The notes: a model not told the origin generated them from the letters alone. A stretch of DNA of 64,000 nucleotides from Myxococcales bacterium (GCA_016794505.1 JAEUJZ010000076.1:128001-192000), one strand, 5' to 3'. Positions 1 through 21,641 are shown, counted from the first letter of the stretch. A program made the numbers and translations.

Positions 1-53
1 CCCGTCCCTTGGGCGCTGTCTTTCTGGGCCCGCGGCGGTCTATCTTTCCCGGT

Positions 54-1120: not shown

Positions 1121-1343
1121 AGTGCGACGTTACCACACACGGCGGCGGCAAGCGCAAGCGAAACCTCGGGTCGGCCTCTCCCGAGTGCCGGCAAAGATTC
1201 CGCTTGCTTTGCTGAAAACACCGTGACTACGCTGCGGCCCGTCGTGCTGGCTGCCTGGATTCGTCCAAGGTGGTTGGCGAAACGAAGCCTCTCGGAATGT
1301 CCTAGAGAGGACCTTGACGAACTGTTCGAAGGAGCAAACGAAA

Positions 1344-1565
1344 ATGAAGAAGGCAATTCTGAAGGTTGGCGTGGTGGGACTGCTGCTGGCGAGCTTGGCT
1401 GGGGCCGGCGCGGGCTGTGCGTACGGCGCGATGGCGATCGCGCAGGACGGCACGGTGTTCGTGGCTCGCAATGACAGCTTCCTCTTCGGCGCCCTCCGCA
1501 AGATGTTCGCCTGTAAGCCGAACGCTGCTGAGATGACCTGCCAGGAAGTCAAGGGCGCGCCGTAG
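1344..1565 (+). CDS. small secreted/lipoprotein-like hypothetical protein
   Basis: Signal peptide 'MKKAILKVGVVGLLLASLAGAGAGC' preceded by GGAG-type RBS; ORF as tracked begins at 1314 but internal Met at 1344 fits better. Confidence 0.4.
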   Translation: MKKAILKVGVVGLLLASLAGAGAGCAYGAMAIAQDGTVFVARNDSFLFGALRKMFACKPNAAEMTCQEVKGAP

Positions 1566-1607
1566 TCGCCCTGGGTCGAGTCAACGTACGCCGTCTTTCT
1601 TCAGGCC

Positions 1608-2069
1608 ATGCGGCAGCGCAACGCACTTCGCCTTGTCGGTGTCTTGTGTTTGGCAGCCGTGGCCTGTCGTGAAGGCAGCCAGCCTCGACCTGCAGCCCAA
1701 AGCGACAGCGAGACCTTCGCCAGCGCTGTGGGCTTTCAGGTCGGTGCTGGGTCCAGCGGCATCGTGATCTCTGGTCAGTTCGCCACCGTTCCAGGGGGAC
1801 AGGAAGAGCGCTTGATTCCAACCCTGCCCAATGCGACGCAGGTCTGGCTTTCCACCTGCGCCGGACAGCTTAGCGAGCGCGCCGCCAGCGTTGACATCTG
1901 GCTGACTCTGCTTCCCGGCGGCAAGGTCAAAGAGGCGCGGGCGATGAACGGTGCGACGCCGCTTTCCCGCTGCTTGGTCGACGAGATCTCGCGTCAGACC
2001 TTGTCGGGCTTGTCGCTCTCGTCCGAGACCCGCATCGCGCTGCGGCTTGCGCTTAGCAAGACGGCGTGA
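1608..2069 (+). CDS. hypothetical lipoprotein
   Basis: Lipoprotein-type signal 'LVGVLCLAAVAC'. Its stop overlaps the downstream GTG start (GTGA), suggesting translational coupling. Confidence 0.5.
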   Translation: MRQRNALRLVGVLCLAAVACREGSQPRPAAQSDSETFASAVGFQVGAGSSGIVISGQFATVPGGQEERLIPTLPNATQVWLSTCAGQLSERAASVDIWLTLLPGGKVKEARAMNGATPLSRCLVDEISRQTLSGLSLSSETRIALRLALSKTA

Positions 2070-3727
2070 GCACACACCTGCTGCGGGCGGCGATCCGCGA
2101 TCGCTTGGCCGACGAACGACTGCTGGTGTCCGGCCGAAGCGATGGGGCGCTGCGCTTGCCCCTCATCTATCCCAGCCCGTATCACGTCGGCATGTCATCG
2201 CTGGGTTTTCAGACGGTGTACCGCCTGCTGAATCAGCCAGACACCGCGGGCTGGCCCGTGCCGCGACCGCTTCTGCGGGCCGAGCGCGCCTTTCTGCCCG
2301 ACGATGTCGCAGCCTGGCGACGCAGCCGCTTGCCGCTTCTGACGTATGAATCGCAGGCGCCAGTCGGTGATGCGCCGCTGCTGCTGTTTTCCATCGCCTA
2401 CGAGCTTGAGATCACCGGCCTGTTTACTTGCCTAGATCTAGCCGGCCTGCCGATCCTGCGCAGCCAGCGCGGCCCTGGGCAGCCGCTCGTCATCTGCGGC
2501 GGACCGCTGACCTTTTCCAACCCGCTGCCGCTCGGCCCCTTCGTCGACGTGGTGGTGATGGGCGAGGCCGAAGAGACGCTGCCAGCGCTTCTGTCAGCGA
2601 TCTGGGATGCCGGTCTGAACCCAAGTCCAGGCCGCGGAAACGCGGACGCGCTGTCGAGCGGAAGCGGACGCGAGGCCCTGCTTTCTGCGCTGGCCACGCT
2701 GCCAGGCGTATGGGTGCCGTCGGTGCATGGCGAGGTACTGCCCAAGGTCGGCCAGTGTGACGATGCGCTGCTGCCCGCGACGTCCGCCATTTTGACGCCG
2801 CATACCGAGCTGCGATCGATGTTCTTGATCGAGCCCGAGCGCGGCTGCTCGCGCGGCTGCACATACTGCGTCATGCGGCGCAGCACCAACGGCGGCATGC
2901 GCTTGGTCTCGCCCGAGCGGGTAAAGAGCCTGCTTCCCGACGACATCACGCGCGTCGGCTTGGTTGGCGCGGCGGTGACCGATCACCCGCGCTTGCCGCA
3001 GATCCTGCACCACATCGTCGTCGAACGCGGCCTGGAAGTGGGCATCAGCTCGCTGCGCGCCGACCGCTTGACGTCCGAGATCGTCGGACTTCTGCGACAG
3101 GGTGGCTACCGCACGCTGACCGTGGCCAGCGACGGCGCCTCTGAGCGCATGCGCGAGCTCGTCGAGCGCAGGACGCGCGAGCGCCATCTTTTGCGCGCCG
3201 CCGAGCTAGCCAAGCAGCACGATCTGCGCACGCTCAAGGTCTACATGATGGTGGGTTTGCCCGGCGAGACCGATGCTGACATCGACGAGCTCGTGCGCTT
3301 CGCAGGCGAGCTTGCGCAGCACTGCCGGCTCGCCTTTGGGGTCGCGCCCTTCGTTGCCAAGCGCAACACGCCGCTCGACGGAGCGCCGTTTGCCGGCATC
3401 GCGGACGTCGAAGCGCGCCTAGATCGCCTGCGTCGCGGGCTGCGCGGCATCGCGGATGTGCGCCCGACGTCGGCGCGCTGGGCCTGGGTCGAGTACCTCT
3501 TGGCCCAAGGCGACAGCGACGCCGGACTGCGAGCCTGGGTCGCACACCAAAATGGCGGCGGCTTTGCCGCCTGGCGGCGGGCCTTTTCCGGCTATGCGAC
3601 GCGGCTTGAGCGCCTGGCAGCGGCCGCAGCACCCGCCGATTCATCCCACGACGCAGGGACCGCGCCTGCGGACTCGGCGAACCGCGGCCAGACGCGACGA
3701 TCTTTGCCCGTGCTGGCAGAAGCCTAG
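2066..3727 (+). CDS. B12-binding-domain radical SAM protein
   Basis: 'CSRGCTYC' is a CxxxCxxC radical-SAM cluster motif. The N-terminal region looks like a B12-binding-like domain. GTG start overlapping the upstream stop. Confidence 0.85.
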   Translation: MSTHLLRAAIRDRLADERLLVSGRSDGALRLPLIYPSPYHVGMSSLGFQTVYRLLNQPDTAGWPVPRPLLRAERAFLPDDVAAWRRSRLPLLTYESQAPVGDAPLLLFSIAYELEITGLFTCLDLAGLPILRSQRGPGQPLVICGGPLTFSNPLPLGPFVDVVVMGEAEETLPALLSAIWDAGLNPSPGRGNADALSSGSGREALLSALATLPGVWVPSVHGEVLPKVGQCDDALLPATSAILTPHTELRSMFLIEPERGCSRGCTYCVMRRSTNGGMRLVSPERVKSLLPDDITRVGLVGAAVTDHPRLPQILHHIVVERGLEVGISSLRADRLTSEIVGLLRQGGYRTLTVASDGASERMRELVERRTRERHLLRAAELAKQHDLRTLKVYMMVGLPGETDADIDELVRFAGELAQHCRLAFGVAPFVAKRNTPLDGAPFAGIADVEARLDRLRRGLRGIADVRPTSARWAWVEYLLAQGDSDAGLRAWVAHQNGGGFAAWRRAFSGYATRLERLAAAAAPADSSHDAGTAPADSANRGQTRRSLPVLAEA

Positions 3728-3734
3728 GCAGCCG

Positions 3735-4454
3735 ATGCCGCGCCTGCCGATCGCGCTTCTGGGTCGCGAGCTGCGCTTTCCTGCCGTCGAGCAAGCGCAC
3801 GAAAGCGGCCTGCTTGCGGTCGGTGGCGATCTATCCGTCGAGCGCCTGCTATTGGCCTATGGCAGCGGCATCTTTCCCTGGCCGGAAAAGAACACGCCGA
3901 TCCTGTGGTGGGCTCCGCCCGAGCGCGCCATCATCGAGCCGCAGCACCTGCACGTCGGACGCAGCCTGCGCAAGCTTGTGCGCCGCGGCGAGTTCACGGT
4001 GCGCGCCGATCACGACTTTCCCGCCGTCATCCGCGCCTGCGCCCGCATTCCCCGTCGCGGTCAGCGCGGCACCTGGATCTTGCCGGCCATGATCGACGCC
4101 TACATCCGCTTGCATGAAGCCGGCTATGCCCACTCGATCGAGGCCTATCGCGACGGCGTCTTGTGCGGCGGGCTGTACGGCGTGTCGCTGGGCGGCTGCT
4201 TCTTTGGCGAGTCGATGTTTTCGCAGGTCGACAACGCATCCAAGGTCGCCTTCGTCGTGCTGGCCGAGCAGCTTTCGGCCTGGGGCTTCGACGTGATCGA
4301 CGCACAGGTGCAGAACGATCACCTAGAGCGCTTCGGCGTCTATACCATCGAGCGCGCCGCGTTTATGATCCGTCTGCGCAAGAGCCTCTTGTTGCCGACG
4401 CGCAAAGGCAGGTGGCAGCTGGACCTGCCCATGGCGCGCGACGACAAACCCTAG
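3735..4454 (+). CDS. aat: leucyl/phenylalanyl-tRNA--protein transferase
   Basis: 'GGDLSVERLLLAYGSGIFPW', 'ILWWAP', 'GESMFS..NASKVA' are collinear with E. coli Aat. ATG at 3735 lies 8 bp after the rSAM stop; the tracked ORF from 3456 is an upstream extension. Confidence 0.85.
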   Translation: MPRLPIALLGRELRFPAVEQAHESGLLAVGGDLSVERLLLAYGSGIFPWPEKNTPILWWAPPERAIIEPQHLHVGRSLRKLVRRGEFTVRADHDFPAVIRACARIPRRGQRGTWILPAMIDAYIRLHEAGYAHSIEAYRDGVLCGGLYGVSLGGCFFGESMFSQVDNASKVAFVVLAEQLSAWGFDVIDAQVQNDHLERFGVYTIERAAFMIRLRKSLLLPTRKGRWQLDLPMARDDKP

Positions 4455-4514
4455 CCGGGCCTGCGTACCGCCAAAAACCCAAGCGGCCGATCGGGGGCCG
4501 AAAGTGAGTGCAGC

Positions 4515-5564
4515 ATGAACGAACGTCAGACCCTAGATGCCGTCAAGGATTACTACGGGCGTGTGCTCCAGAGCTCAGGCGATCTGCAGACCAGCGCCTG
4601 CTGCACGGCCGACAGCATGCCCGTGTACCTGCGGCCCATCGAAGCGCAGCTTCACGACGAGGTGCGCGATCGCTTTTACGGCTGCGGCTCGCCGATTCCG
4701 CTGTGCTTGCAGGGCGCGACCGTGCTCGATCTGGGCTGCGGCTCGGGCCGCGATACGTTTATTTTGTCCAAGCTGGTCGGCGAGCACGGCCAGGTCATCG
4801 GCGTCGACATGACCGACGAGCAGCTTGCCGTCGCCAGCCGCCATCGTGACTACCACGCGCAGAAGTTTGGCTACGCCCAGTCGAACGTGCGCTTGGTGCA
4901 GGCCTATATCGAAGACCTGCGCAGCGCCGGCATTGCCGATGCATCGGTTGACGTCGTGATCTCGAACTGCGTCATCAACCTGTCGCCGGACAAGGGCCGC
5001 GTCTTTTCCGAGATCTTCCGCGTGCTCAAGCCCGGTGGCGAGCTGTACTTCTCAGACGTGTTTTCCGGGCGCCGTGTGCCCAAGCACCTTGCCGTCGATC
5101 CGCTGGTCTTGGGCGAGTGCCTGGGCGGCGCGCTGTACATCGAAGACTTTCGCCGCCTGCTGCGCTCTGTCGGCTGCCTCGATTATCGCGTCGTAAACAG
5201 CCGCCGCATCGAGCTGGGCAACCCCGACATCGAGCAGCGCGCCGGCATGATCGACTTCTATTCAAAGACGATCCGCGCGTTCAAGCTCGACCTGGAAGAC
5301 CTCTGCGAAGACTACGGGCAAGTCGCGTACTACCAGGGCACGCTGGCGGAAAGTCCGCACCAGTTTCTGCTCGACGATCACCACCTGTTTAAGACCGGGC
5401 AGCCGATGCTGGTCTGCGGCAACACCGCGGCCATGGTCGGCGACACGCGCTATGCCCGCCACTTCAAGATCCTCGGCGATCGCTCGACCCACTTTGGACC
5501 GTTCGATTGCGCGCCCAGCCCCGGCGGCGCCATCGCCACACCGGCCAGCGGCGCCTGCTGCTAA
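4515..5564 (+). CDS. arsM: arsenite S-adenosylmethionine methyltransferase-like (ArsM/AS3MT family)
   Basis: N-terminal 'VKDYYGRVLQSSGDLQTSACC' with conserved Cys residues. SAM-binding 'VLDLGCGSGRD'. 'ISNCVINL' motif and C-terminal Cys-rich tail typical of ArsM. Confidence 0.7.
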   Translation: MNERQTLDAVKDYYGRVLQSSGDLQTSACCTADSMPVYLRPIEAQLHDEVRDRFYGCGSPIPLCLQGATVLDLGCGSGRDTFILSKLVGEHGQVIGVDMTDEQLAVASRHRDYHAQKFGYAQSNVRLVQAYIEDLRSAGIADASVDVVISNCVINLSPDKGRVFSEIFRVLKPGGELYFSDVFSGRRVPKHLAVDPLVLGECLGGALYIEDFRRLLRSVGCLDYRVVNSRRIELGNPDIEQRAGMIDFYSKTIRAFKLDLEDLCEDYGQVAYYQGTLAESPHQFLLDDHHLFKTGQPMLVCGNTAAMVGDTRYARHFKILGDRSTHFGPFDCAPSPGGAIATPASGACC

Positions 5565-5743
5565 GAGGCTGTCCTCGTCACGGGCGATTACGCCACCAGT
5601 CACCTAGGTCGGTTTGACACGCACGCGCGGCGCAGGACGCGGACGCGCTGATTCCTCCGCCGGGACCAGTGCTTAGCGGTACCGCTCGACTCGTCCCCGC
5701 CTTTCTGAGTAGTGTTTGAGGCGAGTTTTACTGGGGGATTCGC

Positions 5744-8700
5744 GTGTTCGCAGAAGCTGTGCGTGCTGCATTGGTCTTGATGTTCTTTGGCGTCTCGGGT
5801 CAGTCGCTGACCGCGGCACCCAAAGCCACCACCGTCGCCGCGTCGGGCATCACCACATCGTCGGCGGTGCTCAACGGCATCGGCAACCCAAGCGGAGAAG
5901 CCACCACAGGACGCTTCCGCTATAGCTCGACCAACCCTGGGACGTGCAACGACACGTTCGGCACCCGCGTGCCCACGGCCGGCGGCACCGATCTGGGCAC
6001 AGGCAGCTCGCCCGTCCCCTACTCGATCACCACCACCGGCCTGACGCCAGGCGTCACGTATTACTTCTGCTCGATCGTCTCGAATGCGTCGGGCACGTCG
6101 TTTGGCGCCATCCTTTCGTTCACCATTCCGGCGCCGCCCGTGGTGGTGACCACTGGCTCGACGATGGTGACCAGCGGCTCGGCGACGCTGCAGGGCACGG
6201 CTGACCCGCTGACTTCACCGACGACGGGCTGGTTCCGCTACGGCACGACGAACCCCACGGCTTGCGACGACTCCTTCGGTACCCGCGCCCCCTGGAGCGG
6301 CGGATCGTCGCTGGGTTCAAGCGTCGGCGCGGTGGCGTACACGACGTCGATCAGCGGCCTTCTGCCCGCGACGACGTATTACTTCTGCGCCATCGCGCAA
6401 AACGGCTTGGGCACCGGCTTCGGTCGCATCGAGTCGTTCACCACTCCAGCCAATGCGCCCTCGGTCAGCACCAACAGCGCGAGCAGCCTGACGCGCACCA
6501 CGGGCGTGCTGAACGGCAGCGCCAACCCCGGTGGCTCGGCGACGACGGCGTGGTTCCGCTATGCCACGGCCAGCCCCGGCACCTGCAACGACACCTTTGG
6601 CACCCGCGCCCCAGCCAGCGGCGGATCGTCGCTGGGCGCGGGCACCAGCAGCGCCAACTTCTCGCAGTCGATCTCGGGCTTGTCGTCGGCCACGACCTAT
6701 TACTACTGCGCCATCGCCGTCAACGCCGTCGGCACAAGCTGGGGCAGCGTGCAGTCGTTCACCACGCCGTCTTCGCCCACGGTGCGCACCACGCCGGCCA
6801 GCAACATCAGCAACACCACGGCCACGCTCAATGGCGCCGGCAACCCGCAGCGCGCAAGCACCACCGGCTGGTTCCGCTATGCCATCAGCGACCCCGGCAC
6901 CTGCGACGACAAGTTCGGCTCGCGAGCCCCGGTCAGCGGCGCGATCAACCTGGGCGCTGACATCTACGACGTCGATTACCTCGTGAATATCTCGGGGCTC
7001 TCTCCTGCCACTACGTATTGGTACTGCGCCATCATTGCCAGCAGCGAAGGCACAGCGTTTGGCAAGGTCATGACCTTTACCACTGCTTCGGCGCCCGTGG
7101 CCGTCACCAACGCAGCCACCAACGTCACGTCGAGCGGCGCGGTAATCAACGGCGCAGGCAACCCCAACGGATCGAGCGCAAGCGGCTGGTTCCGCTACTA
7201 CACCGTCGATCCTGGGACCTGCAATGACTCGTTCGGCTGGCGCATCCCGTCGAGCGGCGGCACATCGCTGGGCGCGGGCAATACAGCGACGCCTTTTGCC
7301 CAGTCGCTAAGCGGCCTGTCGCCGTCGACGACCTATTACTACTGCGCCATGGTCAACAACAGCTATGGCACCAGCTTTGGCGCCGTGCAGAGCTTTACCA
7401 CCACGGCCATGCCTCCCACGGTCAGCACGGGCAGCGCCAGCAGCCTGACGCGGACGACCGGCGTGCTCAACGGCTACGCCAACCCCGGAGGCATCGCCAC
7501 CACCGCCTGGTTCCGCTACAGCAAAGTCAGCCCCGGCACGTGCAACGACAGCTTCGGCGACCGCGCCCCCGGTACTGGCGGCTCGTCGCTGGGCTCGGGC
7601 AGCAGCAGCGTCGCGTTCTCGCAGGCCATCTCGGGTCTTACGCCCGCGACGATGTATTACTTCTGCGCCTTCGCCAGCAACTCGATGGGCACGGTGGTTG
7701 GCTCGGTGCAGACGTTCATCACGCCGGCCTCGCCGACTGCCCGCACGACGCCGGCCAGCAACATCAGCAACTCTTCGGCGACGCTAAATGGCGCCGGCAA
7801 CCCGCAGCGCTCGGCGGCCAGCGGCTGGTTCCGCTACAGCGCCACCAACCCCATGACCTGCGACGACAAGTTCGGCTCGCGCGCCCCGGTTAGCGGCGCC
7901 ACCAACCTCGGAGCCGACATCTATGACGTCGACTACGTCACCAACATCACCGGCCTTTCGCCCGGCACGACCTATTACTTCTGCGCCATCGTCAGCAGCA
8001 CCGAAGGCATAGCCTTCGGCGCGATTCAGTCGTTTACCACCGCCGGGCCGGTCACCGTCAGCACCAGCGCGGCCACCAGCGTCACCGCATCGTCGGCGGT
8101 GTTAAACGGCACCGGCAACCCCAACGGCGCCACCGCCGCTGGCTGGTTCCGCTACAGCAACACCGACCCTGGCACCTGCAATGACTCGTTCGGCTGGCGC
8201 GCTCCGTACACGGGCAACGTCAACCTGGGAGCCACCGCCACCGTCGTCCCATTCACGCAGTCGGTGACCAGCCTGTCACCGGGCACGACCTATTACTTCT
8301 GCGCCATCGCCAACAACAGCTATGGCACCAGCTTTGGCGCCGTCATGTCGTTCACCACGCCGGCCACGGCCCCGTCGGTCAGTACCAGCGGTGCGACCAG
8401 CTTGACGCGCACGACAGCGGTCCTAAACGGCTACGCCAACCCCGGCGGCATCGCCACCACGGCGTGGTTCCGCTACAGCAAGCTCAGCCCTGGCACCTGC
8501 AACGACAGCTTCGGCGACCGCGCCCCCGGCACGGGCGGCTCGGCGCTCGGCTCGGGCAGCAGTGGCGTCAGCTTCTCGCAGGCGATCTCGGGTCTTTCGC
8601 CCGCGACGACGTATTACTTCTGCGCCATCGCCGCCAACACCATGGGCACGGTGCTGGGCTCGGTGCAGACGTTCATCACGCCGGGCTCACCGACCGCCCG

Positions 8701-11700
8701 CACCACAGCCGCTAACAACATCACCACCACGTCCGCGACGCTAAACGGCGCCGGCAACCCGCAGCGCGCGGCCACCACCGGCTGGTTCCGCTACGCCACC
8801 TCGGACCCCGGTACCTGCGACGACAAGTTCGGCTCGCGAGCCCCCGTGATGGGAGGCACCGCCCTCGGCGCCGACATCTATGACGTCGACTACGTCACCA
8901 ACATCAGCGGTCTATCGAGCGGGACGACGTATTACTACTGCGCCATCGTCAGCAGCAGCGAAGGCATGGCGTTTGGCACCATCCAGTCGTTCACGACCTC
9001 GGGCATTCCGACGGCAACTACGGTGGCGGCGAGCAGCGTGACCTCGTCGTCGGCTGTGCTCAACGGCACCGGCAACCCCAACGGCGCCGCTGCCATCGGC
9101 TGGTTCCGCTACAGCAACACCGATCCCGGCACCTGCAACGACAGCTTTGGCTGGCGTGCGCCGTACACGGGCAACAGCAACCTGGGATCCACCGCTGGCA
9201 GCGTGCCGTTTGCGCAGACGGTCAGCAGCCTGTCGCCGGGCACGACCTATTACTACTGCGCCATCGCCAGCAACAGCTATGGCGTGGGCTTCGGCGCGGT
9301 CATGACGTTCAGCACGCCCGCCACGGCTCCGACGGTCACCACCAGCGGAGCCAGCAACCTCACGCGCACGACCGGCGTACTAAACGGCTATGCCAACCCC
9401 GGCGGCGCCGCCACCACGGCGTACTTCCGCTATGACACGGCCAGCCCCGGCACCTGCAACGACAGCTTTGGCAAGCGCTCGCCGTCGACCGGTGGCTCGT
9501 CGCTGGGCTCGGGCGCCAGCAGCGTGTCGTTCTCGCAGTCCATCTCGGGCCTGACTGCCGCGACGATGTACTACTACTGCGCGATTGCCTCGAACACCAT
9601 CGGCAAGGCCTTCGGCACGGTGCAGTCGTTCATCACGCCCAGCGCACCGACGGCTCGCACCACGCCGGCCAGCAACATCGCCAACACCTCGGCGACGCTA
9701 AATGGCGCCGGCAACCCGCAGCGCGCCGCAGCATCCGGTTGGTTCCGTTACAGCACCACCAACCCCATGACCTGCGACGACAAGTTCGGCTCGCGCGCCC
9801 CGGTCAGCGGCGCCACCAACCTCGGAGCCGACATCTATGACGTCGACTACGTCACCAACATCACCGGCCTTTCGCCCGGCACGACCTATTACTTCTGCGC
9901 CATCGTCAGCAGCACCGAGGGCACGGCGTTTGGCACCATCCAGTCGTTCACCACGGCCTCGCCGCCTGTGGCGATCACCAAGCCGGCCACGTCGATCACC
10001 GCTTCCTCGGCGACCCTGAACGGAGAGGGAACGCCCAATGGCTCTGCCGCCACCGGCTGGTTCCGCTACGGCAACACCGACCCCGGCACCTGCAGCGATA
10101 GCTACGGCACCCGCCTGCCGTGGAGCGGCAGCACGTCGCTGGGCGCCGGGACCACCAGCGTGCCCTTTGCCGGCGCGCTGAGCAGCCTGACGCCTGGCGC
10201 GACCTATTACTTCTGCGCCATCGTCAGCAACGGCTATGGCACAAGCTTTGGCGCCGTGCAGTCGTTCAAGATGCCGGCGACCGGCCCCGCCGTCACCACC
10301 AGCGGAGCCAGCAGCCTGACGCGCACGACGGGCGTGCTCAACGGCTACGCCAACCCCGGCGGCGATGCCACCACCGCCTGGTTCCGCTACGGCACGGCCA
10401 GCCCTGGCACCTGCAACGACACCTTCGGTACGCGCGCTCCGACAACGGGTGGATCGTCGCTGGGCTCGGGCACCAGCACGGTGTCGTTCTCGCAGGCCAT
10501 CTCAGGCCTGTCGCCGGCCACGACCTATTACTACTGCGCCATCGCCGCCAACTCGGTCGGCACCTCGTGGGGCACCGTGCAGACGTTCATCACGCCGACG
10601 GCGCCGACGGCACTGACCACGCCAGCCAGCAACATCACCAACACCACGGCGACGCTCAATGGCTCGGGCAACCCGAACCGCGGCGCGACCCAGGGCTGGT
10701 TCCGCTATGCCACCAGCGACCCCGGCACCTGCGACGACAAGTTCGGCTCGCGAGCGCCGACCTCGGGCGGCGTCAGCCTGGGCAGCGACATCTATGACCA
10801 GCCCTATTCCGTAAATATCGCCGGTCTGTCGCCCGCCACCACGTATTATTACTGCGCCATCGTCAGCAGCACCGAAGGCACGGCGTTCGGCGCGGTGCTG
10901 ACCTTCACCACGTCGGCGCCCGCCACGGCGACCACGCTTTCCGCGAGCAGCGTCGCATCGACCACGGCGACGCTCAACGGCTCGGGCAACCCCAACGGCG
11001 CCGCAGCCACCGGCTGGTTCCGCTACAGCACCACCAGCCCCGGCACGTGCAACGACAGCTTTGGCACGCGCATGCCGTCCAGCGGAGGTACCTCGCTGGG
11101 CTCGGGCACGGGCAGCGTCGCCTTTGGTCAGGCCATCACCGGGCTGTCACCCGGCGTGACCTATTACTACTGCGCGTTCGCCTCGAACGCCGTGGGCATG
11201 GGCATGGGCGCGCTCTTGTCGTTCACCACGCCGGCCAGCTTGCCGACGGTCATCACCGAAGCGCCGTCGGGCATCGCCATCCAGCTAAACGGCACGGTCA
11301 ACCCCAACGGCGCCGCGACGGTTGGCTGGTTCCGCTTGGCCACCACCAGCCCCGGCACCTGCAACGACACCTTCGGGACGCGCGTGCCGACTACCGGCGG
11401 TACGTCGCTCGGCTCGGGAGCCAGCTACGTCTCGTACCAGCAGCCGGCGCCGAGCTTGGTGCCGGGCACGACCTACTACTACTGCGCGATTGCCTCGAAC
11501 GCAGTGGGCACGTCGTATGGCGTCGTGCGCTCGTTCACGGCGCCGATGCCGCCGACCGTCGCAACGCTGGCCGCGACGCCTGTGACGGCGACCACGGCGA
11601 CGCTTAACGGCTCGGGCAATCCCAACGGCAACTCGACGATTGCCTGGTTCCGCTACAGCACCAGCAGCCCGACGACCTGCAACGACGTGTTCGGCACGCG

Positions 11701-13066
11701 CACTCCGTCGAGCGGCGGCACGTCTCTTGGCGCTGGCACCAGCGATACGCCGTTCGCGCAGCCGATCTCTGGCTTGGCTCCCGCGACGACGTATTACTTC
11801 TGCGCCATCGCATCGAGCGCATACGGCACGGTGCTCGGCTCGGTGCTGTCGTTCACCACGCCGCCGTCTTCGTCGATCGTCAAGCCCACCGAGCCAAGCA
11901 CAGGCGCCACCACGTCGAGCCGCGTCCACACCATGGCCGCCACCGAGGTCACGGCCGACGGCGCGGTGCTCAACGGCTCTGCCAACCCCAGCGGCGAACC
12001 GAGCACCGGCTGGTTCCGCTTTGACACCACCGATCCCGGCACCTGCGACGACACGTTCGGCATGCGCACGCCGTCCCAAGGCGGCACCGATCTGGGCAAG
12101 GATCACAAGCCGGTGGCCTTCTCGCAGGGTCTAAGCGGCCTGAAGTCGGGCACGACCTACTACTTCTGCGCCGTCGCGTCGAGCGGCGAGAAGGCGCGCT
12201 TCGGCAGCGTCCTTTCGTTCACCACCCAGGAAGGCACCGCCGCCATCACCACGGCCCCGCCGACCGAGGTCAGCGAAGATGCCGCGGTGCTAAACGCGAC
12301 GGTGGCAGCCCGTGGCGAGACGCCATCCCGCGTGTGGTTCCGCTACAGCGAAAAGAACCCCGGCGCGTGCAGCGACACCTTCGGCATCGCCGCCGAAGCG
12401 AGCGCAGGACTCGGTGCAAGCGGGGAAGGCGCGACGGCGTACTCGGTTGCGGTGTCGGGCCTCAAGCGCGGCACGACCTACTTCGTCTGCGCCTTGGCCC
12501 AAAGCGCCGCCGGTACCCGCCTGGGCGAGGTCCTGTCCTTCGTCGCTGGCGAGAAACCGCCCACCGTGGTCACCGAGGACGCGACGCCCATCGAGGGCAC
12601 CCAGGCCACCGTCACCGGCACCGCCGACCGCAGCAGCGCCCCCAGCAAGGTCTGGTTCCGCTATGGCGAGTCGGATCCTGGTGTCTGCGACGACCGCTTC
12701 GGCAGCCACGTACAGGCCAGCAGTGATACCCCGGTCGACGTCGACAGCTCACGCGGCGTGTACTCCGCACGTCTCGCGGGTCTCAAGCCGAACACCACGT
12801 ATTACTACTGCATCGGCGGCAGCAACCAGGGTGGCGCCACGTTCGGCCAGGTCCGCTCGTTCCGAACCGGCGCGTCGCTTGCGGCCTCGGCTGCCTTGGC
12901 GGGCGATGTGACGGTCGACGCCGTGCGTGAAGCCCCTGAGCCCGTCGAGATGCGCGGCTGCAGCTATCTGCCGCATGCCAGCGAGCGCGGTGCCCAGGTG
13001 CCGCTTGTCGCCCTGCTCTCGCTGCTTGGTCTGCTTGCCTTCCGCCGCCGCCTGCGTCGCAGCTAG
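5744..13066 (+). CDS. giant secreted repeat protein with MYXO-CTERM-like C-terminal sorting signal
   Basis: 2440 aa with an N-terminal signal peptide. It contains 22 tandem ~105-aa units; each carries 'LNG.GNP.G...GWFRY..PGTC.D.FG.R.P.GG..LG' and 'TYYYCAI..N..GT.FG..QSFTTP' (FN3-like strands plus a Cys pair). The C-terminus 'GCSYLPH...VPLVALLSLLGLLAFRRRLRRS' is a Cys + hydrophobic helix + Arg cluster. Confidence 0.85.
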   Translation: MFAEAVRAALVLMFFGVSGQSLTAAPKATTVAASGITTSSAVLNGIGNPSGEATTGRFRYSSTNPGTCNDTFGTRVPTAGGTDLGTGSSPVPYSITTTGLTPGVTYYFCSIVSNASGTSFGAILSFTIPAPPVVVTTGSTMVTSGSATLQGTADPLTSPTTGWFRYGTTNPTACDDSFGTRAPWSGGSSLGSSVGAVAYTTSISGLLPATTYYFCAIAQNGLGTGFGRIESFTTPANAPSVSTNSASSLTRTTGVLNGSANPGGSATTAWFRYATASPGTCNDTFGTRAPASGGSSLGAGTSSANFSQSISGLSSATTYYYCAIAVNAVGTSWGSVQSFTTPSSPTVRTTPASNISNTTATLNGAGNPQRASTTGWFRYAISDPGTCDDKFGSRAPVSGAINLGADIYDVDYLVNISGLSPATTYWYCAIIASSEGTAFGKVMTFTTASAPVAVTNAATNVTSSGAVINGAGNPNGSSASGWFRYYTVDPGTCNDSFGWRIPSSGGTSLGAGNTATPFAQSLSGLSPSTTYYYCAMVNNSYGTSFGAVQSFTTTAMPPTVSTGSASSLTRTTGVLNGYANPGGIATTAWFRYSKVSPGTCNDSFGDRAPGTGGSSLGSGSSSVAFSQAISGLTPATMYYFCAFASNSMGTVVGSVQTFITPASPTARTTPASNISNSSATLNGAGNPQRSAASGWFRYSATNPMTCDDKFGSRAPVSGATNLGADIYDVDYVTNITGLSPGTTYYFCAIVSSTEGIAFGAIQSFTTAGPVTVSTSAATSVTASSAVLNGTGNPNGATAAGWFRYSNTDPGTCNDSFGWRAPYTGNVNLGATATVVPFTQSVTSLSPGTTYYFCAIANNSYGTSFGAVMSFTTPATAPSVSTSGATSLTRTTAVLNGYANPGGIATTAWFRYSKLSPGTCNDSFGDRAPGTGGSALGSGSSGVSFSQAISGLSPATTYYFCAIAANTMGTVLGSVQTFITPGSPTARTTAANNITTTSATLNGAGNPQRAATTGWFRYATSDPGTCDDKFGSRAPVMGGTALGADIYDVDYVTNISGLSSGTTYYYCAIVSSSEGMAFGTIQSFTTSGIPTATTVAASSVTSSSAVLNGTGNPNGAAAIGWFRYSNTDPGTCNDSFGWRAPYTGNSNLGSTAGSVPFAQTVSSLSPGTTYYYCAIASNSYGVGFGAVMTFSTPATAPTVTTSGASNLTRTTGVLNGYANPGGAATTAYFRYDTASPGTCNDSFGKRSPSTGGSSLGSGASSVSFSQSISGLTAATMYYYCAIASNTIGKAFGTVQSFITPSAPTARTTPASNIANTSATLNGAGNPQRAAASGWFRYSTTNPMTCDDKFGSRAPVSGATNLGADIYDVDYVTNITGLSPGTTYYFCAIVSSTEGTAFGTIQSFTTASPPVAITKPATSITASSATLNGEGTPNGSAATGWFRYGNTDPGTCSDSYGTRLPWSGSTSLGAGTTSVPFAGALSSLTPGATYYFCAIVSNGYGTSFGAVQSFKMPATGPAVTTSGASSLTRTTGVLNGYANPGGDATTAWFRYGTASPGTCNDTFGTRAPTTGGSSLGSGTSTVSFSQAISGLSPATTYYYCAIAANSVGTSWGTVQTFITPTAPTALTTPASNITNTTATLNGSGNPNRGATQGWFRYATSDPGTCDDKFGSRAPTSGGVSLGSDIYDQPYSVNIAGLSPATTYYYCAIVSSTEGTAFGAVLTFTTSAPATATTLSASSVASTTATLNGSGNPNGAAATGWFRYSTTSPGTCNDSFGTRMPSSGGTSLGSGTGSVAFGQAITGLSPGVTYYYCAFASNAVGMGMGALLSFTTPASLPTVITEAPSGIAIQLNGTVNPNGAATVGWFRLATTSPGTCNDTFGTRVPTTGGTSLGSGASYVSYQQPAPSLVPGTTYYYCAIASNAVGTSYGVVRSFTAPMPPTVATLAATPVTATTATLNGSGNPNGNSTIAWFRYSTSSPTTCNDVFGTRTPSSGGTSLGAGTSDTPFAQPISGLAPATTYYFCAIASSAYGTVLGSVLSFTTPPSSSIVKPTEPSTGATTSSRVHTMAATEVTADGAVLNGSANPSGEPSTGWFRFDTTDPGTCDDTFGMRTPSQGGTDLGKDHKPVAFSQGLSGLKSGTTYYFCAVASSGEKARFGSVLSFTTQEGTAAITTAPPTEVSEDAAVLNATVAARGETPSRVWFRYSEKNPGACSDTFGIAAEASAGLGASGEGATAYSVAVSGLKRGTTYFVCALAQSAAGTRLGEVLSFVAGEKPPTVVTEDATPIEGTQATVTGTADRSSAPSKVWFRYGESDPGVCDDRFGSHVQASSDTPVDVDSSRGVYSARLAGLKPNTTYYYCIGGSNQGGATFGQVRSFRTGASLAASAALAGDVTVDAVREAPEPVEMRGCSYLPHASERGAQVPLVALLSLLGLLAFRRRLRRS
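6170..11220 (+). repeat. ~957-bp higher-order tandem repeat (three-domain super-repeat, about 5 copies) inside the giant gene
   Basis: The 'SLTRTT..GYANPGG' anchor recurs at ~6485, 7442, 8398, 9356 and 10312 (spacing 956-958 bp). Domain types A-B-C alternate regularly. Confidence 0.8.
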
Positions 13067-13112
13067 CCTCGCCCTGCCCCGCCTCGCTTTTCGCCCCACC
13101 CCGCGTTGCAGC

Positions 13113-13140
13113 CTGGGCCCATCGGGCCGCGACGCCGTCT
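13113..13140. terminator. possible bidirectional hairpin terminator between convergent genes
   Basis: 'GGCCCatcGGGCC' stem-loop followed by 'tctttta', lying between the giant-gene stop (13066) and the GH-gene stop (13150). Confidence 0.3.
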
Positions 13141-13149
13141 TTTACACGC

Positions 13150-14163
13150 CTACACGCCGCGAATAAAGTGGCGCATGCGGGCGCGGTTTTCCGGCGAATA
13201 GTCGACGGCCGGCGGGTTCGCGCAGTGTTCTTCTTCGCGGTTGGCCGACCACAGGAACGTCGCCGGATAGCCTTTTTCAGCCAGCAGCCGCAGGCGGCTC
13301 TCGACGTCCTGCCGCGCGCCTAGCTCGGGCCAGGGACGGTGCGGCGCGGTGGCGATCTCACCGACGATGACCGGCCAGCGCGGGTCAAAGTCGTGGACCG
13401 GTATGTGGCCCGGCTCGGCATAGTAATGAAACTGGTGCAGCGTCAGCCCCATGCCCGGCGAGTCCCACTGCCGCAGCGACGCGTGATACGCGAAGCCCAC
13501 CGTCGACAAAAAGCCCGCTTCGTTGATCAGGCTGGCCCCCCGCGTGATGAACGCCCGCATCTCATCGCGCCGCACTGGTTTGCACGGATCGAGAGCGCTT
13601 AGCGGCTGCTCCGGCGCGCTCGTACACCACTCGGGCTCGTTGATGACTTCCCAGGCATAGATCACGTCGGGAAAGTCCGCCGAGCACTGCAGCAGCGGCA
13701 CCAGCGTCGTCTGCAGAAACGTCTCGCGCTTTTCGGGGTCACACAGAAGCTCGTGGCGGCCCGACTTGACGATGCCATCTGAGCCCGGCACGGCCACACC
13801 CGGAAACGCCAAGTGGAAGTCGACCAGCGACGGCAAAAGCTGAATGCCGGCGATGGCGCAGCGCTCTAGCAGAAAGCTGAAGTCTGCGATGAAGCCGCTC
13901 GGCAGCGACGGAACTTCGCCCATCGTCCAGCCCTTTTGTGCATCCAAGACCGGCTTCTTATCGTCGATGCCATAGGTCGTTCCATCCCCCAGCAGAAACC
14001 AGCGCACCGCGCAGAAGCCCAGCGCAGCAAACTCGGCAAGCTCGTGGTCGATGCGCTCGCGCCACGCGGCCGGCGCGCCCCACAGCGAACCCGAGTTCTT
14101 TTTCGGGGCCGACCCAAAGTCCCAGGCGTAGTTCTTCCATGCGTAGTTGATGCCGACCTTCAT
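13150..14163 (-). CDS. glycoside hydrolase, clan GH-A (GH5-like) TIM-barrel
   Basis: 'WEVINEPEW' is a candidate NEP acid/base motif and 'VIVGEIA' a candidate nucleophile Glu. N-terminus 'MKVGINYAWKNYAWDFG'. Confidence 0.55.
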   Translation of the reverse strand: MKVGINYAWKNYAWDFGSAPKKNSGSLWGAPAAWRERIDHELAEFAALGFCAVRWFLLGDGTTYGIDDKKPVLDAQKGWTMGEVPSLPSGFIADFSFLLERCAIAGIQLLPSLVDFHLAFPGVAVPGSDGIVKSGRHELLCDPEKRETFLQTTLVPLLQCSADFPDVIYAWEVINEPEWCTSAPEQPLSALDPCKPVRRDEMRAFITRGASLINEAGFLSTVGFAYHASLRQWDSPGMGLTLHQFHYYAEPGHIPVHDFDPRWPVIVGEIATAPHRPWPELGARQDVESRLRLLAEKGYPATFLWSANREEEHCANPPAVDYSPENRARMRHFIRGV

Positions 14164-14347
14164 GCCTGCTCCTGTGTCGCGGTGCGTTCAGACGGGCGGG
14201 ACGAGCGCGAGACATCCGTAGCTTATCGCGAATGATCCAGTTGTACGCAGCGCGCGGCAGCGACCTTGGCACGAGCGGCCATGTGGCACGCGCGATCCCC
14301 ACGCAGCACGCGTGATACCCACGTGGCAAGCGTGATACAAACAACTC

Positions 14348-15136
14348 ATGGGCTTGGGCGTTCGTCGTCGATTCGTGGCTGGAATCGGGTCCGATGCAAC
14401 TTGGGATCCAGGCAAGCGGCGACACCGCCGCGCCCGCATCGCAGCGCCGTCCGTGCTAGCGCTGGCACTGTTCGCCTCGGGCTGTGAAGGCCGGGGCGAA
14501 GGACAGATCAGCGGCACGCTGTTTCTGCGCGACTGTCCCGATCAAGATCCGACCTACGACTCGAAGCGCAGCAGCACCGTAGTGCCCAGCCCCTTGCCTG
14601 ACTTTGCCCTGAACCCGACGTACTTTTTCGTCGATGTGCAGTTCGCGCAGCGGCCCGGCTGGTATCCCGATCCGCGCGCCGTCGACTCGATGTTCATCCG
14701 CCTGCAGCGAAGCTCGCACAAGCCGGATCGCACCGATGTATTTCAGCTGTCCGTCCACGACATCGACGGCGTGCTGGCCGCGCAGCAGGCGGCGCTTTCG
14801 CGTGGCGAGCCGGGTGTGCCGATCATTCCGCCGAACGTCTCGACGATGAACGCGCCGCTTCCCGATGACCCCGCCGAGAGCGTACGCGCCGACATCGCGC
14901 TAAACGGCAGCTGCCAGTTTTCACGCGTCGAGCCGCTCATGCGCGGGCACATCCGCTTTTCGGCGCTGGGCCGCAACGTCGGTGAAGAGATCTCCGCGGA
15001 GCTGCGCGTGACCGTCGAAGATGGCCGCGCCGCTCGCGAGCAAGGCAGCCCGCCGCCGAGCCCCAATGTGGCCGGCGAGCTAGCCGGCTCGTTCCGCTTC
15101 TTCATCTCGCGCGGGCAGCGCGGCTATAGCTGGTAG
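14348..15136 (+). CDS. hypothetical lipoprotein
   Basis: 'VLALALFASGC' lipobox. True start uncertain (possibly a downstream GTG/TTG). GC3-rich frame. Confidence 0.45.
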   Translation: MGLGVRRRFVAGIGSDATWDPGKRRHRRARIAAPSVLALALFASGCEGRGEGQISGTLFLRDCPDQDPTYDSKRSSTVVPSPLPDFALNPTYFFVDVQFAQRPGWYPDPRAVDSMFIRLQRSSHKPDRTDVFQLSVHDIDGVLAAQQAALSRGEPGVPIIPPNVSTMNAPLPDDPAESVRADIALNGSCQFSRVEPLMRGHIRFSALGRNVGEEISAELRVTVEDGRAAREQGSPPPSPNVAGELAGSFRFFISRGQRGYSW

Positions 15137-15254
15137 GTCCGCGCCGCCGCTTGCCGCCTGCTCGCATGGTTTCGCCCCGGTCCCCTCGCACCGGGCGCAC
15201 TGTTCGATTGACCACCGCCCAGCCGCAGAATACAGTCGCCGAAGGAGTCTGACC

Positions 15255-15875
15255 TTGACCCGCTTCCTCGATCTCGTGGCGATCCTGATCGTCGCTGTCT
15301 TGGTGCTGCTGCCGCAGCCAGGCGTCACCGTGTTCCCCGCCGTTCAAGGCGACAAGACCGACCTCGATCGGCTGGCTGGTTTGGAAGACGCGCGCTATCG
15401 CGCCCCCGACGATGTCCAGGCCGCCGTCGAGCTAGCCCGCGCCTATCTGCGCGTCGAGCAGCCAGCCTGGGCCGTCGCGGCGCTAGAGCCATTTTTCGGC
15501 CGCGGTGAACACGCAGTGCATCAGGTGGCGGCGTATGCCTATGCCACGCTGCTTCTGCCGCAGGACGCGCTGAAACAGACCGAGCAAGGCCTGGCTGCCT
15601 GCGATGCCAAGCCGACGCACTGCCCCGACATGGCGCGCATCCGGCTGCAGTATCTGGGCGATCTGATGCGCCAGCCCGCGCAGGCCGGTGTCGATCCACA
15701 GACCGACCCGCTGCGCGCCCGCAAGCTGGTGCGCGAAGCCCTGCGCGCCACCAAGCCTGACCTGCGACCGACGGCGGTCCCCTCCCCCACCAAGACTCCA
15801 TCGACCGCCCCGGCTCCATCGACCGCCCCGGCTCCGGCGACCGCCCCGGCTCCGGCGGCGGCTGGATCGCGCTAA
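15255..15875 (+). CDS. membrane-anchored hypothetical protein with Pro/Ala/Thr-rich tail
   Basis: N-terminal TM helix 'LVAILIVAVLVLL'. C-terminal 'PSTAPAPSTAPAPATAPAPAAA' low-complexity linker. Confidence 0.45.
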   Translation: MTRFLDLVAILIVAVLVLLPQPGVTVFPAVQGDKTDLDRLAGLEDARYRAPDDVQAAVELARAYLRVEQPAWAVAALEPFFGRGEHAVHQVAAYAYATLLLPQDALKQTEQGLAACDAKPTHCPDMARIRLQYLGDLMRQPAQAGVDPQTDPLRARKLVREALRATKPDLRPTAVPSPTKTPSTAPAPSTAPAPATAPAPAAAGSR

Positions 15876-15898
15876 GTCAGCTCTTTCTGGCGTTCGCC

Positions 15899-16207
15899 AT
15901 GGCCCGGCATGTGTTCTCTCACCCCCTCGACAACGCCGGGGCGCGTGTTCTGATTGGGCAGGCGTTTACCCATTACGCCGAGCGGTATCCATCGGCAAAG
16001 CTGCAGCTTAAGTGGACGTCGGACACGCACGCCGAGCTCTGTGGTTTGGCGCGCGGCCTGAAGCTTCGGGCCCGCATCGAGCTTCAGGTCAGCCGCTGTG
16101 TCTTGGACGTCGATGTTCCTTTTGTGCTGCGTCCGTTTCAGGACGTGGCGCAGCGCGCGATCGAGCGCGAAGTGAAGCGCTGGCTTGAGCGCGCGGCAAC
16201 TAGCTAG
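15899..16207 (+). CDS. polyhydroxyalkanoic acid system family protein-like (PHA_gran_rgn)
   Basis: 102 aa. The pattern 'H.L..A.AR......YAERY.....L.W.....EL...ARG..L.A.IEL....' parallels the ~90-aa PHA-system proteins. Confidence 0.45.
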   Translation: MARHVFSHPLDNAGARVLIGQAFTHYAERYPSAKLQLKWTSDTHAELCGLARGLKLRARIELQVSRCVLDVDVPFVLRPFQDVAQRAIEREVKRWLERAATS

Positions 16208-16218
16208 CGAGGCCTCAC

Positions 16219-17490: not shown

Positions 17491-17512
17491 TCGTCGTTTA
17501 TGCTAGTGGCTG

Positions 17513-18904: not shown

Positions 18905-18916
18905 CGGGGTGACGCG

Positions 18917-19762: not shown

Positions 19763-19784
19763 CTCGACCTCCCTTTCGCCTCTC

Positions 19785-21560: not shown

Positions 21561-21641
21561 GATGGACCTTTGTCTATCTGGCCGCAGCGCACGTCGATGG
21601 CGACCCATGCCGTCGCTGCGCAGGCATGTGGGGAAGTCAGG

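What the first reader, a model, noticed from the sequence alone, without database searches (positions are those of the whole stretch)
6170..11220. 957-bp three-domain super-repeat (A-B-C) iterated about 5 times at the DNA level
The anchor motif 'SLTRTTGVLNGYANPGG' recurs with a 956-958 bp period (at ~6485, 7442, 8398, 9356 and 10312). Domain types A ('GDRAPGTGG'), B ('AGNPQR...DIYDVDY') and C ('GWRAPYTGN') alternate strictly. Such near-identical cassettes imply recent unequal-crossover expansion. They are a substrate for copy-number (length) variation of the surface protein, and also a likely site of assembly collapse or expansion.
Basis: seen in the sequence. Interest (0 to 1): 0.65.

Follow-up and report, generated by a model that had tools for sequence, protein, structure and literature searches.

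The report
Old three-domain repeat in surface protein
The 957-bp repeat is real, but it is an old and stable three-domain building block of a giant myxobacterial surface protein made of 22 fibronectin-III-like domains, not a recent, near-identical, copy-number-unstable expansion.

Summary
The periodicity is confirmed. One ORF (5744-13066, +, 2440 aa) encodes 22 tandem Fn3-like domains of about 106 aa. Domains d3-d17 form five blocks of exactly 957 nt (6458-11242), with no indels.

Same-type domains three positions apart are 77% identical in DNA, against 63% at other lags (0 of 100,000 domain-order shuffles reach this).

"Near-identical" and "recent" are not supported:
- The cassettes are 72-83% identical in DNA, with dS 0.46-0.68.
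- The longest shared exact run is 113 nt.
- Six independently assembled orthologues (63-86% aa identity) have the same 1-2-(ABC)x5 architecture and the same 106/107/106 spacing.
- Only one more distant complete relative has four cassettes.

Within-gene paralogues are nevertheless more alike than positional orthologues in distant lineages. One 163-nt tract (7842-8004 vs 9756-9918) differs at a single base. Together these point to slow concerted evolution by occasional gene conversion.

The protein has a signal peptide, two Cys per domain and a divergent MYXO-CTERM-like tail. It is most likely a rod anchored to the cell surface through the myxosortase route.

Three-domain periodicity occurs in 41 of 116 family members.

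It is an ordinary new member of a known kind. Short-read contigs of relatives often break inside the array.

The parts
5744..13066 (+). Single ORF of 2440 aa (GTG start, stop codon included) encoding the whole repeat protein. About 239 kDa after removal of the signal peptide and tail; 15% Thr, 13% Ser, 12% Ala, 12% Gly; GC3 87%.
   Evidence: An identical protein (P0002) is named in NCBI 'MAG: fibronectin type III domain-containing protein [Myxococcales bacterium]'. A GGGGGA Shine-Dalgarno-like motif lies 6-11 nt upstream of the GTG. Orthologue P0005 starts at the same position.
5744..5818 (+). Probable Sec signal peptide (aa 1-25: one Arg, hydrophobic core ALVLMFFGV, then SLTA/AP).
   Evidence: Read from the sequence and conserved in orthologues. 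No predictor was run, so this is inference.
5819..6457 (+). Unique N-terminal Fn3-like domains d1 (5819-6136) and d2 (6137-6457). d1 is the most constrained domain of the protein (dN 0.02 at dS 0.70 vs P0005).
6458..7414 (+). Cassette 1 (d3 = A, d4 = B, d5 = C).
7415..8371 (+). Cassette 2 (d6 = A, d7 = B, d8 = C).
8372..9328 (+). Cassette 3 (d9 = A, d10 = B, d11 = C). The AlphaFold2 model shows three consecutive beta-sandwich domains, pLDDT 93.5.
9329..10285 (+). Cassette 4 (d12 = A, d13 = B, d14 = C).
10286..11242 (+). Cassette 5 (d15 = A, d16 = B, d17 = divergent domain at the C position).
7842..8004 (+). Gene-conversion tract, copy in d7 (cassette 2). 163 nt with one mismatch to 9756-9918.
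   Evidence: 64 columns in the tract vary among the five B domains, but d7 and d13 differ at only one. Permutation p <= 7e-5. Positional orthologues in P0005 are only 83-87% identical there.
9756..9918 (+). Gene-conversion tract, copy in d13 (cassette 4).
11234..12877 (+). Five further Fn3-like domains outside the super-repeat: d18 (11234-11551), d19 plus a 16-aa Pro/Ser/Thr linker (11552-11917), d20 (11918-12241), d21 (12242-12559), d22 (12560-12877).
12950..13063 (+). C-terminal tripartite sorting-signal-like tail MRGCSYLPHASERGAQVPLVALLSLLGLLAFRRRLRRS. It has a lone Cys2406, a hydrophobic helix and an Arg cluster, and reads as a divergent MYXO-CTERM.
   Evidence: The HMM finds no hit on this tail. 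The homologous tails of P0070 and P0052 pass TIGR03901.2, and those of P0055 and P0051 fall 1 bit short.

Best explanation
The 957-bp periodicity is the DNA footprint of a three-domain (A-B-C) super-repeat inside one gene. The gene encodes a giant secreted protein built almost entirely of 22 fibronectin-III-like beta-sandwich domains. Each domain probably carries one disulfide. The array is preceded by a signal peptide and ends in a divergent MYXO-CTERM-type tail. By analogy with characterised MYXO-CTERM proteins, the protein is most likely exported by Sec, lipidated at the lone tail Cys and cleaved by myxosortase. It would then be displayed on the outer surface as a long rod or stalk (about 75-80 nm if extended), with the highly conserved d1 at the distal tip. 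The five cassettes arose by duplication of a three-domain block long before the divergence of the lineages sampled here. They are 72-83% identical, and their number and spacing are conserved in orthologues down to 63% identity. Same-type domains are kept at about 75% identity by slow concerted evolution, with occasional short gene conversions. Neighbouring domains stay at about 50% identity, which fits the known tendency of tandem-domain proteins to avoid similar neighbours. Shown here: the repeat anatomy, its age and conservation, the Fn3 fold, the Cys pattern, one conversion tract, and family-wide periodicity. Inferred: export route, surface anchoring, rod shape, adhesin or spacer role, and the disulfides.
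For: Anatomy: 22 WFRY anchors spaced 106/107/106 aa, five 957-nt copies in register, and the lag-3 identity excess. Age: cassette identity 72-83% with dS 0.46-0.68. In P0005, 22 of 22 domains best-match their positional orthologue. Positional orthologues are 86-89% identical against 75-76% for paralogues in the close trio. Architecture and spacing are identical in P0005, P0006, P0051, P0052 and P0054, and identical through d19 in P0055, which has 21 domains. Concerted evolution: against the four distant orthologues, within-gene paralogues (74-78% for A and B types) exceed positional orthologues (67-75%), which barely exceed cross-position pairs. The d7/d13 tract has 1 mismatch in 163 nt. Fold: Pfam Pur_ac_phosph_N 1.3e-58, PhoD_N and fn3; AF2 pLDDT 93.5 with three all-beta domains; Foldseek top hits are triple FnIII fragments of contactin, fibronectin, Tie2 and titin, E about 1e-10. 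Cys: 45 in total, two per domain 41 residues apart in 21 domains and 40 in d21, plus one in the tail. Anchor: the tripartite tail; relatives' homologous tails score 22.7-35.3 bits against the TIGR03901.2 cut-off of 20; several homologues are named MYXO-CTERM proteins by NCBI or JGI. The sorting mechanism is taken from PMC11980579. Family: 41 of 116 homologues show the lag-3 excess. Constraint profile: dN is 0.02-0.03 in d1, d16, d17 and d19, against 0.17-0.22 in d5 and d14.
Against: The window's own tail gives no TIGR03901 hit even at E <= 10. No myxosortase gene was looked for, because only this 64-kb window is available. No function has been tested for any member of this family, and no separate adhesive 'head' domain is present. 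The excess of within-gene over between-gene similarity could also come from independent re-expansions or from lineage-specific parallel substitutions rather than gene conversion. dS values are compressed by the extreme codon bias (GC3 87%), so ages are only relative. Neighbouring-domain identity (about 50%) sits at, not below, the limit quoted for the misfolding-avoidance rule (PMC8201768). Gene neighbourhoods of orthologues are not conserved, so context gives no functional clue.
Confidence: 0.75

Rival explanations
1. One reading: a recent unequal-crossover expansion produced near-identical cassettes, making the gene a Periscope-type, variable-length surface protein.
For: The cassettes are in perfect 957-nt register without indels. 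One 113-nt exact run and a 163-nt near-exact run exist between cassettes 2 and 4, which could support homologous recombination. The family as a whole ranges from 13 to 37 domains among homologues with strong lag-3 periodicity, and one complete relative has 4 cassettes.
Against: Cassette identity is 72-83% in DNA and 68-81% in protein, with dS 0.46-0.68. Adjacent domains are only about 50% identical, far below the >=80% criterion used for Periscope Proteins (PMC8201768). Five cassettes and identical spacing are found in six independent orthologues at 63-86% identity. Positional orthology is intact against P0005 and P0006.
Confidence: 0.05
2. Independent parallel expansions: each lineage re-amplified an ABC unit on its own, and the shared count of five is coincidence or is selected for total length.
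For: Within-gene same-type domains are more alike than positional orthologues in distant lineages. Cassette number differs in L013 (4), and cassette length differs there too (106/108/106).
Against: The same number, the same 106/107/106 spacing, and the same flanking unique domains (d1, d2, d17-d19) with clear one-to-one orthology occur in all lineages with five cassettes. Positional orthologues still slightly exceed cross-position pairs for the A and B types. A directly observed conversion tract provides a simpler mechanism.
Confidence: 0.12
3. Assembly artefact: the five-fold array in the window is a mis-assembly (collapse or over-expansion) of a metagenome-assembled genome.
For: The source is a MAG. 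Relatives' contigs frequently end inside the array or show odd 5' truncations.
Against: The ORF is uninterrupted over 7.3 kb. The cassettes differ at 17-28% of positions, so each is uniquely placeable by reads. Six assemblies from different ENA, JGI and NCBI samples give the same architecture.
Confidence: 0.03
4. The three-domain period is functionally selected, as a titin-like ruler or a periodic binding surface matched to a periodic partner or to self-assembly. On this view it is more than a relic of the duplication unit.
For: Type-specific residues are invariant across 25 cassettes from five genomes, for example CDDKFGSR and the acidic D-x-x-D loop in B, and N-P-G-G in A. Lag-3 periodicity recurs in 41 of 116 homologues. 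Cassette length has been preserved to the residue over long divergence.
Against: There are no data on partners. Fifty-six of 116 homologues show no periodicity. Conservation of types is also expected from purifying selection on any folded domain combined with concerted evolution.
Confidence: 0.2

Closest known systems
MYXO-CTERM surface proteins of Myxococcota processed by myxosortase MrtX (e.g. TraA; TIGR03901; PMC11980579)
   Same: N-terminal signal peptide. C-terminal tripartite tail with a Cys-containing motif, a hydrophobic helix and an Arg cluster. Myxococcota origin. Homologues' tails pass the HMM and are annotated as MYXO-CTERM.
   Different: The window's tail has a single Cys in GCSY rather than the common GCGC, followed by a long 14-residue spacer, and it fails the HMM. 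The passenger is a pure Fn3 array with no PA14, Cys-rich or enzyme domain. Processing has not been tested.
Fibrillar adhesins / stalk proteins built of tandem Ig- or Fn3-like domains (PMC8286594)
   Same: A long monomeric array of beta-sandwich 'stalk' domains with a C-terminal anchor. The conserved membrane-distal domain (d1) sits where adhesive domains usually are.
   Different: No recognisable separate adhesive domain, since every domain is of the same Fn3-like family. The organism is an environmental myxobacterium, not a host-associated pathogen.
Periscope Proteins (SasG, Sgo_0707, Rib-domain proteins; PMC8201768)
   Same: A surface protein made of tandem folded domains, with the repeat unit in perfect register at the DNA level.
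   Different: Periscope repeats are >=80% identical, often nearly 100%, and vary in number between strains. Here neighbours are about 50% identical, cassettes are 68-81% identical, and the number is conserved among orthologues.
Titin A-band FnIII/Ig super-repeats (recalled from general knowledge; the structural match to titin FnIII tandems is)
   Same: Domains similar at a fixed lag (a super-repeat) while neighbours are dissimilar. Fn3 fold.
   Different: All three positions are Fn3-like, with no Ig/Fn3 mix. The period is 3 rather than 7 or 11. No periodic partner is known. There is no homology beyond the fold (12-17% identity).
Pfam Pur_ac_phosph_N / PhoD_N (Fn3-like N-terminal domains of purple acid and PhoD phosphatases)
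   Same: Best sequence-profile match of the individual domains (1.3e-58 summed over 10 stretches).
   Different: No phosphatase catalytic domain anywhere in the protein. Here the domain is used as a 22-fold structural repeat, with a conserved Cys pair.

Membership tests
Fibronectin type III-like domain superfamily (Pfam PF16656 / PF16655 / PF00041) | Profile-HMM match above the curated cut-off | tested here: met
   PF16656 195.9 bits (cut-off 30), PF16655 92.4, PF00041 76.7.
Fibronectin type III-like domain superfamily (Pfam PF16656 / PF16655 / PF00041) | Seven-stranded beta-sandwich fold | tested here: met
   AF2 pLDDT 93.5, all-beta, three domains. Foldseek probability 1.00 to FnIII triple-domain crystal structures.
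MYXO-CTERM sorting domain (TIGR03901) | HMM score at or above the 20-bit cut-off | tested here: not met
   No hit for the window tail at E <= 10. The homologous tails of relatives score 35.3, 32.9, 30.0, 25.0 and 22.7 (pass) and 19.0, 18.9 and 12.0 (fail). The model's authors state that lineage-specific forms are missed (10.1101/2023.06.07.544157).
MYXO-CTERM sorting domain (TIGR03901) | Located at the extreme C-terminus, with an invariant Cys in the signature motif | tested here: met
   Cys2406 is 34 residues from the end and is the only Cys outside the domain pairs.
MYXO-CTERM sorting domain (TIGR03901) | Hydrophobic transmembrane segment without charged residues, followed by an Arg-rich cluster | tested here: met
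   LVALLSLLGLLAF followed by RRRLRRS. Read directly; no TM predictor was run.
MYXO-CTERM sorting domain (TIGR03901) | Host belongs to Myxococcota and encodes a myxosortase (MrtX/MrtC) | not testable with these tools
   Taxon: an identical protein is labelled Myxococcales bacterium MAG, and the relatives are Polyangia or Myxococcales. The myxosortase gene is not in the parts of this 64-kb window that were scanned, and the rest of the genome is not available.
Periscope Proteins (PMC8201768) | [quoted passage not shown] | tested here: not met
   Adjacent domains are about 50% identical in protein. The 319-aa cassettes are 68-81% identical, and only the pair 2/3 reaches 80.9%.
Periscope Proteins (PMC8201768) | Repeat-number variation among closely related strains | tested here: inconclusive
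   No variation among orthologues at 85-86% and 63-68% identity. No strains more than 90% identical were available apart from the identical P0002.
Fibrillar adhesin-like proteins (PMC8286594) | Tandem stalk domains plus at least one known adhesive domain | tested here: not met
   The stalk criterion is met (22 tandem domains with less than 35 aa separation). No adhesive-domain family is detected in Pfam.

The most novel reading that the evidence does not exclude
The conserved A-B-C triad would be a functional structural period of a phylum-wide family of giant MYXO-CTERM Fn3 rods. On this reading it acts as a bacterial, titin-like ruler or periodic binding surface. Selection plus gene conversion would maintain it, and the cassette number would set a defined reach from the myxobacterial surface.
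Probability: 0.15. Interest if true: 0.5.

Novelty: new member of a known kind. Interest (0 to 1): 0.25.

Why it matters
The main value is as a correction. A strikingly regular DNA repeat in a surface-protein gene need not mean rapid length variation. Here the repeat is old, conserved in number and only slowly homogenised.

The gene is a clean natural example of a super-repeat in which similar domains are kept apart by dissimilar neighbours. It also documents one intragenic gene-conversion tract.

It points to a large, uncharacterised family of 1,300-4,200-aa Fn3-array proteins in Myxococcota. These carry MYXO-CTERM tails and are candidate cell-surface stalks or adhesins for social behaviour.

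There is a practical lesson too: short-read MAG contigs often break in this array, so copy numbers taken from fragmentary assemblies should not be trusted.

Tried and rejected
- NCBIfam on the full protein and on the isolated tail, to obtain a direct MYXO-CTERM call, gave no hit. The only NCBIfam and weak Pfam extras (PME_inhib, NDNF, B3GALT2_N, Ig_J_second and others) are sub-threshold, low-complexity matches and were ignored.
- Rfam and tRNA scans of the window found nothing.
- Promoter and terminator scans of both gene ends found nothing useful. The one sigma-70-like match, at 13141-13169, lies downstream of the stop.
- Gene neighbourhoods were compared for functional clues. There is no conserved synteny among the window and L001-L004.
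- P0082 (16 domains) and P0062 (20 domains) were first counted as 3- and 5-cassette variants. They were then rejected as evidence, because their ORFs begin mid-domain after unrelated DNA. P0063 and P0067 were likewise not counted, because their first WFRY anchor lies at residue 4 and their contigs are only about 8.4 kb, so they look cut at the N-terminus.
- TRF could not report the 957-nt period because its longest period is 500. It gave only the 318-nt unit.
- The large representative-protein search and the metagenome scan were not used, because the first homologue search already gave 120 informative relatives.


Full report
**What is there**

The flagged interval lies inside one long ORF, 5744-13066 on the + strand (2440 aa, GTG start). 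The protein has 22 copies of a [W/Y/R]FR[Y/L/F] anchor, spaced 106, 107, 106, 106, 107, 106 ... aa. It is therefore a tandem array of 22 domains of about 106 aa (coordinates).

Pfam places the domains in the Fn3-like families: Pur_ac_phosph_N (1.3e-58), PhoD_N and fn3. An AlphaFold2 model of cassette 3, built on an alignment of 25 cassettes, has pLDDT 93.5 and shows three consecutive all-beta domains. Its best PDB matches are triple FnIII fragments of contactin, fibronectin, Tie2 and titin, at E about 1e-10 and 12-17% identity.

**Check of the observation**

The repeat finder returns families of exactly five copies spaced 957, 957, 957, 957 nt (D6-D11). TRF, which is limited to periods of 500 or less, sees the 318-nt unit over 6546-11863. 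The anchor motif is at 6485, 7442, 8399, 9356 (as NLTRTT) and 10313.

- For d3-d17, domain identity at lag 3 is 77% nt / 73% aa.
- At lags 6 and 9 it is 76% and 74% nt.
- At all other lags it is 62-64% nt / 50-52% aa.
- None of 100,000 shuffles of domain order reaches the lag-3 value (66.9 +/- 1.9).

Clustering gives A = d3, 6, 9, 12, 15; B = d4, 7, 10, 13, 16; C = d5, 8, 11, 14. The domain d17 sits at the fifth C position, but it is divergent and groups with the A type and d19. The block is 6458-11242, which is 5 x 957 nt without any indel.

GDRAPGTGG and GWRAPYTGN each occur twice, and DIYDVDY and AGNPQR four times.

**How similar, and how old**

The cassettes are not near-identical. Pairwise DNA identity is 72.4-82.8% and protein identity 68-81%. 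dS is 0.46-0.68, dN/dS 0.27-0.49, and the longest shared exact run is 113 nt.

The homologue search found an identical protein, which NCBI names [quoted passage not shown]. It also found orthologues from independent assemblies: P0005 (86% identity, 2440 aa), P0006 (85%), P0055 (68%), P0054 (65%), P0052 (64%) and P0051 (63%).

- All six have the same architecture, 1-2-(ABC)x5-Y-Z, followed by two or three tail domains.
- Five of them have exactly the same spacing string as the window through d19. P0054 differs by one residue, at d14.
- Against P0005, all 22 domains of the window protein match their positional counterpart best.
- In the close trio, positional orthologues are 86-89% identical (A and B types), against 75-76% for paralogues.

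The five cassettes therefore predate these lineages.

**Copy number**

One complete gene, on a 2-Mb contig, has four cassettes, there of 106/108/106 aa. It is L013 = P0070, from Polyangia MAG STL-MYX5, 62% identical.

Across the wider family, 41 of the 116 listed homologues that have at least nine domains show a lag-3 excess of 8 points or more. Their domain counts run from 13 to 37. Whole-cassette gain and loss thus happens, but on a long timescale.

Two apparent variants, P0082 and P0062, were discarded because their ORFs start mid-domain after unrelated DNA.

**Concerted evolution**

Against the four distant orthologues, within-gene same-type domains are more alike than positional orthologues. 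The figures are 74-78% against 67-75% for the A and B types, and 63-69% against 57-60% for C. Positional orthologues barely exceed cross-position pairs. With equal rates, this cannot arise from an old duplication alone. It needs homogenisation or turnover within lineages.

A direct example is present in the window. The tracts 7842-8004 (d7) and 9756-9918 (d13) differ at 1 of 163 nt, although 64 of those columns vary among the five B domains. The positional orthologues in P0005 are only 83-87% identical there. The permutation p-value is 7e-5 or lower.

I infer slow concerted evolution by occasional short gene conversion. Independent re-expansion is the main rival.

**The rest of the protein**

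- Residues 1-25 look like a Sec signal peptide.
- The protein has exactly 45 Cys. There are two per domain, 41 residues apart in 21 domains and 40 in d21, plus a single Cys2406 in the tail. This suggests one disulfide per domain (inference).
- The tail, MRGCSYLPHASERGAQVPLVALLSLLGLLAFRRRLRRS, has the tripartite design described for MYXO-CTERM: a Cys motif, a TM helix and an Arg cluster (PMC11980579 and 10.1101/2023.06.07.544157).

The NCBIfam model does not hit this tail. It does hit the homologous tails of relatives above its 20-bit cut-off: P0012 35.3, P0001 32.9, P0019 30.0, P0070 25.0 and P0052 22.7. P0051 and P0055 miss by about 1 bit. I therefore read the tail as a divergent, lineage-specific MYXO-CTERM. 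Membership by HMM is formally not met.

**Selective constraint**

Constraint is uneven along the protein. Against P0005, dN is 0.02-0.03 in d1, d16, d17 and d19 at dS 0.3-0.7, but 0.17-0.22 in the C-type domains d5 and d14. The membrane-distal d1 is the best conserved domain in the distant orthologues as well.

**Mechanism proposed**

Most steps below are inferred from the characterised MYXO-CTERM pathway.

1. Sec export.
2. Lipidation at the tail Cys and cleavage by myxosortase.
3. Transfer to the cell surface by the T2SS.
4. Display of a rod about 75-80 nm long made of 22 Fn3-like domains, with d1 at the tip.

The super-repeat places domains that are 73% identical three positions apart, while neighbours are about 50% identical. 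This is consistent with the idea that similar neighbours promote misfolding (PMC4660218, PMC8201768). Whether the triad has a function beyond this cannot be told from sequence.

**Context**

The gene sits among housekeeping genes: a radical-SAM protein, Leu/Phe-tRNA protein transferase and a methyltransferase upstream, and FtsH, CarAB, PyrC and PurH further on. Orthologues have unrelated neighbours. No RNA families or tRNAs are present.

**Assembly aspect**

Four of the nine closest species-representative loci (L005, L006, L008, L010) are contigs that end inside the array. The window copy itself agrees with six independent assemblies.

**Verdict**

The interpretation as a recent, near-identical, variable-number expansion is mostly wrong. 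The object is a new member of a known kind, a tandem-Fn3 surface protein with a MYXO-CTERM-type anchor, and it carries an old, slowly homogenised three-domain super-repeat.

Noticed in passing
window 5819-6136 (d1); also d16, d17, d19 (10604-11917): Constraint is very uneven along the array. d1, d16, d17 and d19 have dN 0.02-0.03 against P0005 at dS 0.3-0.7, whereas the C-type domains d5 and d14 have dN 0.17-0.22. The membrane-distal d1 may be the functional tip.
   Followed up: partly
L005, L006, L008, L010 (locus starts); L007:1-420; L011:4800-6000: In related MAGs the contigs end inside the cassette array (four loci). In two others the ORF starts mid-domain directly after unrelated DNA. These are probable assembly breaks or chimeras, or genuinely 5'-truncated copies.
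   Followed up: partly
L001, L002, L003, L004 versus window 1-20000: Orthologues at 63-86% identity sit in completely different gene neighbourhoods, so there is no conserved synteny or partner gene. L001 and L002 share only an unannotated gene of about 700 aa downstream.
   Followed up: partly
P0096, P0108, P0112, P0118, P0119, P0120; L018, L019, L042, L064: The same Fn3-like domain type (about 58-62% identity) occurs in tandem in proteins labelled Acidobacteria (Chloracidobacterium, Pyrinomonadaceae) and Saprospiraceae. These carry other C-terminal modules (DUF1566, carboxypeptidase-regulatory-like, FG-GAP) and no MYXO-CTERM. Possible explanations are domain spread beyond Myxococcota or mis-binning.
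   Followed up: no
P0089 (1899 aa): This homologue has very high lag-3 and lag-6 identity (78%, against 41-43% at other lags), which suggests a much younger cassette expansion. It ends in a B12-binding-domain-like sequence (PF02310), which may be a gene-call fusion.
   Followed up: no
window 15796-15853 and 14286-14338: Two short tandem repeats: 18 nt x 3.2 copies (95% matches) and 20 nt x 2.7 copies. They lie downstream of the big gene, in or near ORFs without Pfam matches (14348-15136, 15255-15875).
   Followed up: no
window 17513-19762: An FHA-domain sigma-54 activator (17513-18904, +) lies convergent with a PP2C-type phosphatase (18917-19762, -). This is a typical myxobacterial Ser/Thr-signalling pair.
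   Followed up: no
window 20382-25825: Three paralogous acyl-CoA dehydrogenase genes lie on the minus strand within 5.5 kb.
   Followed up: no
window 6001-12000: There is a strong negative GC skew (-0.13 to -0.16) confined to the repeat gene. It reflects the Thr/Ser/Ala/Pro-rich coding strand with C-ending codons (GC3 87%), not a replication signal.
   Followed up: partly
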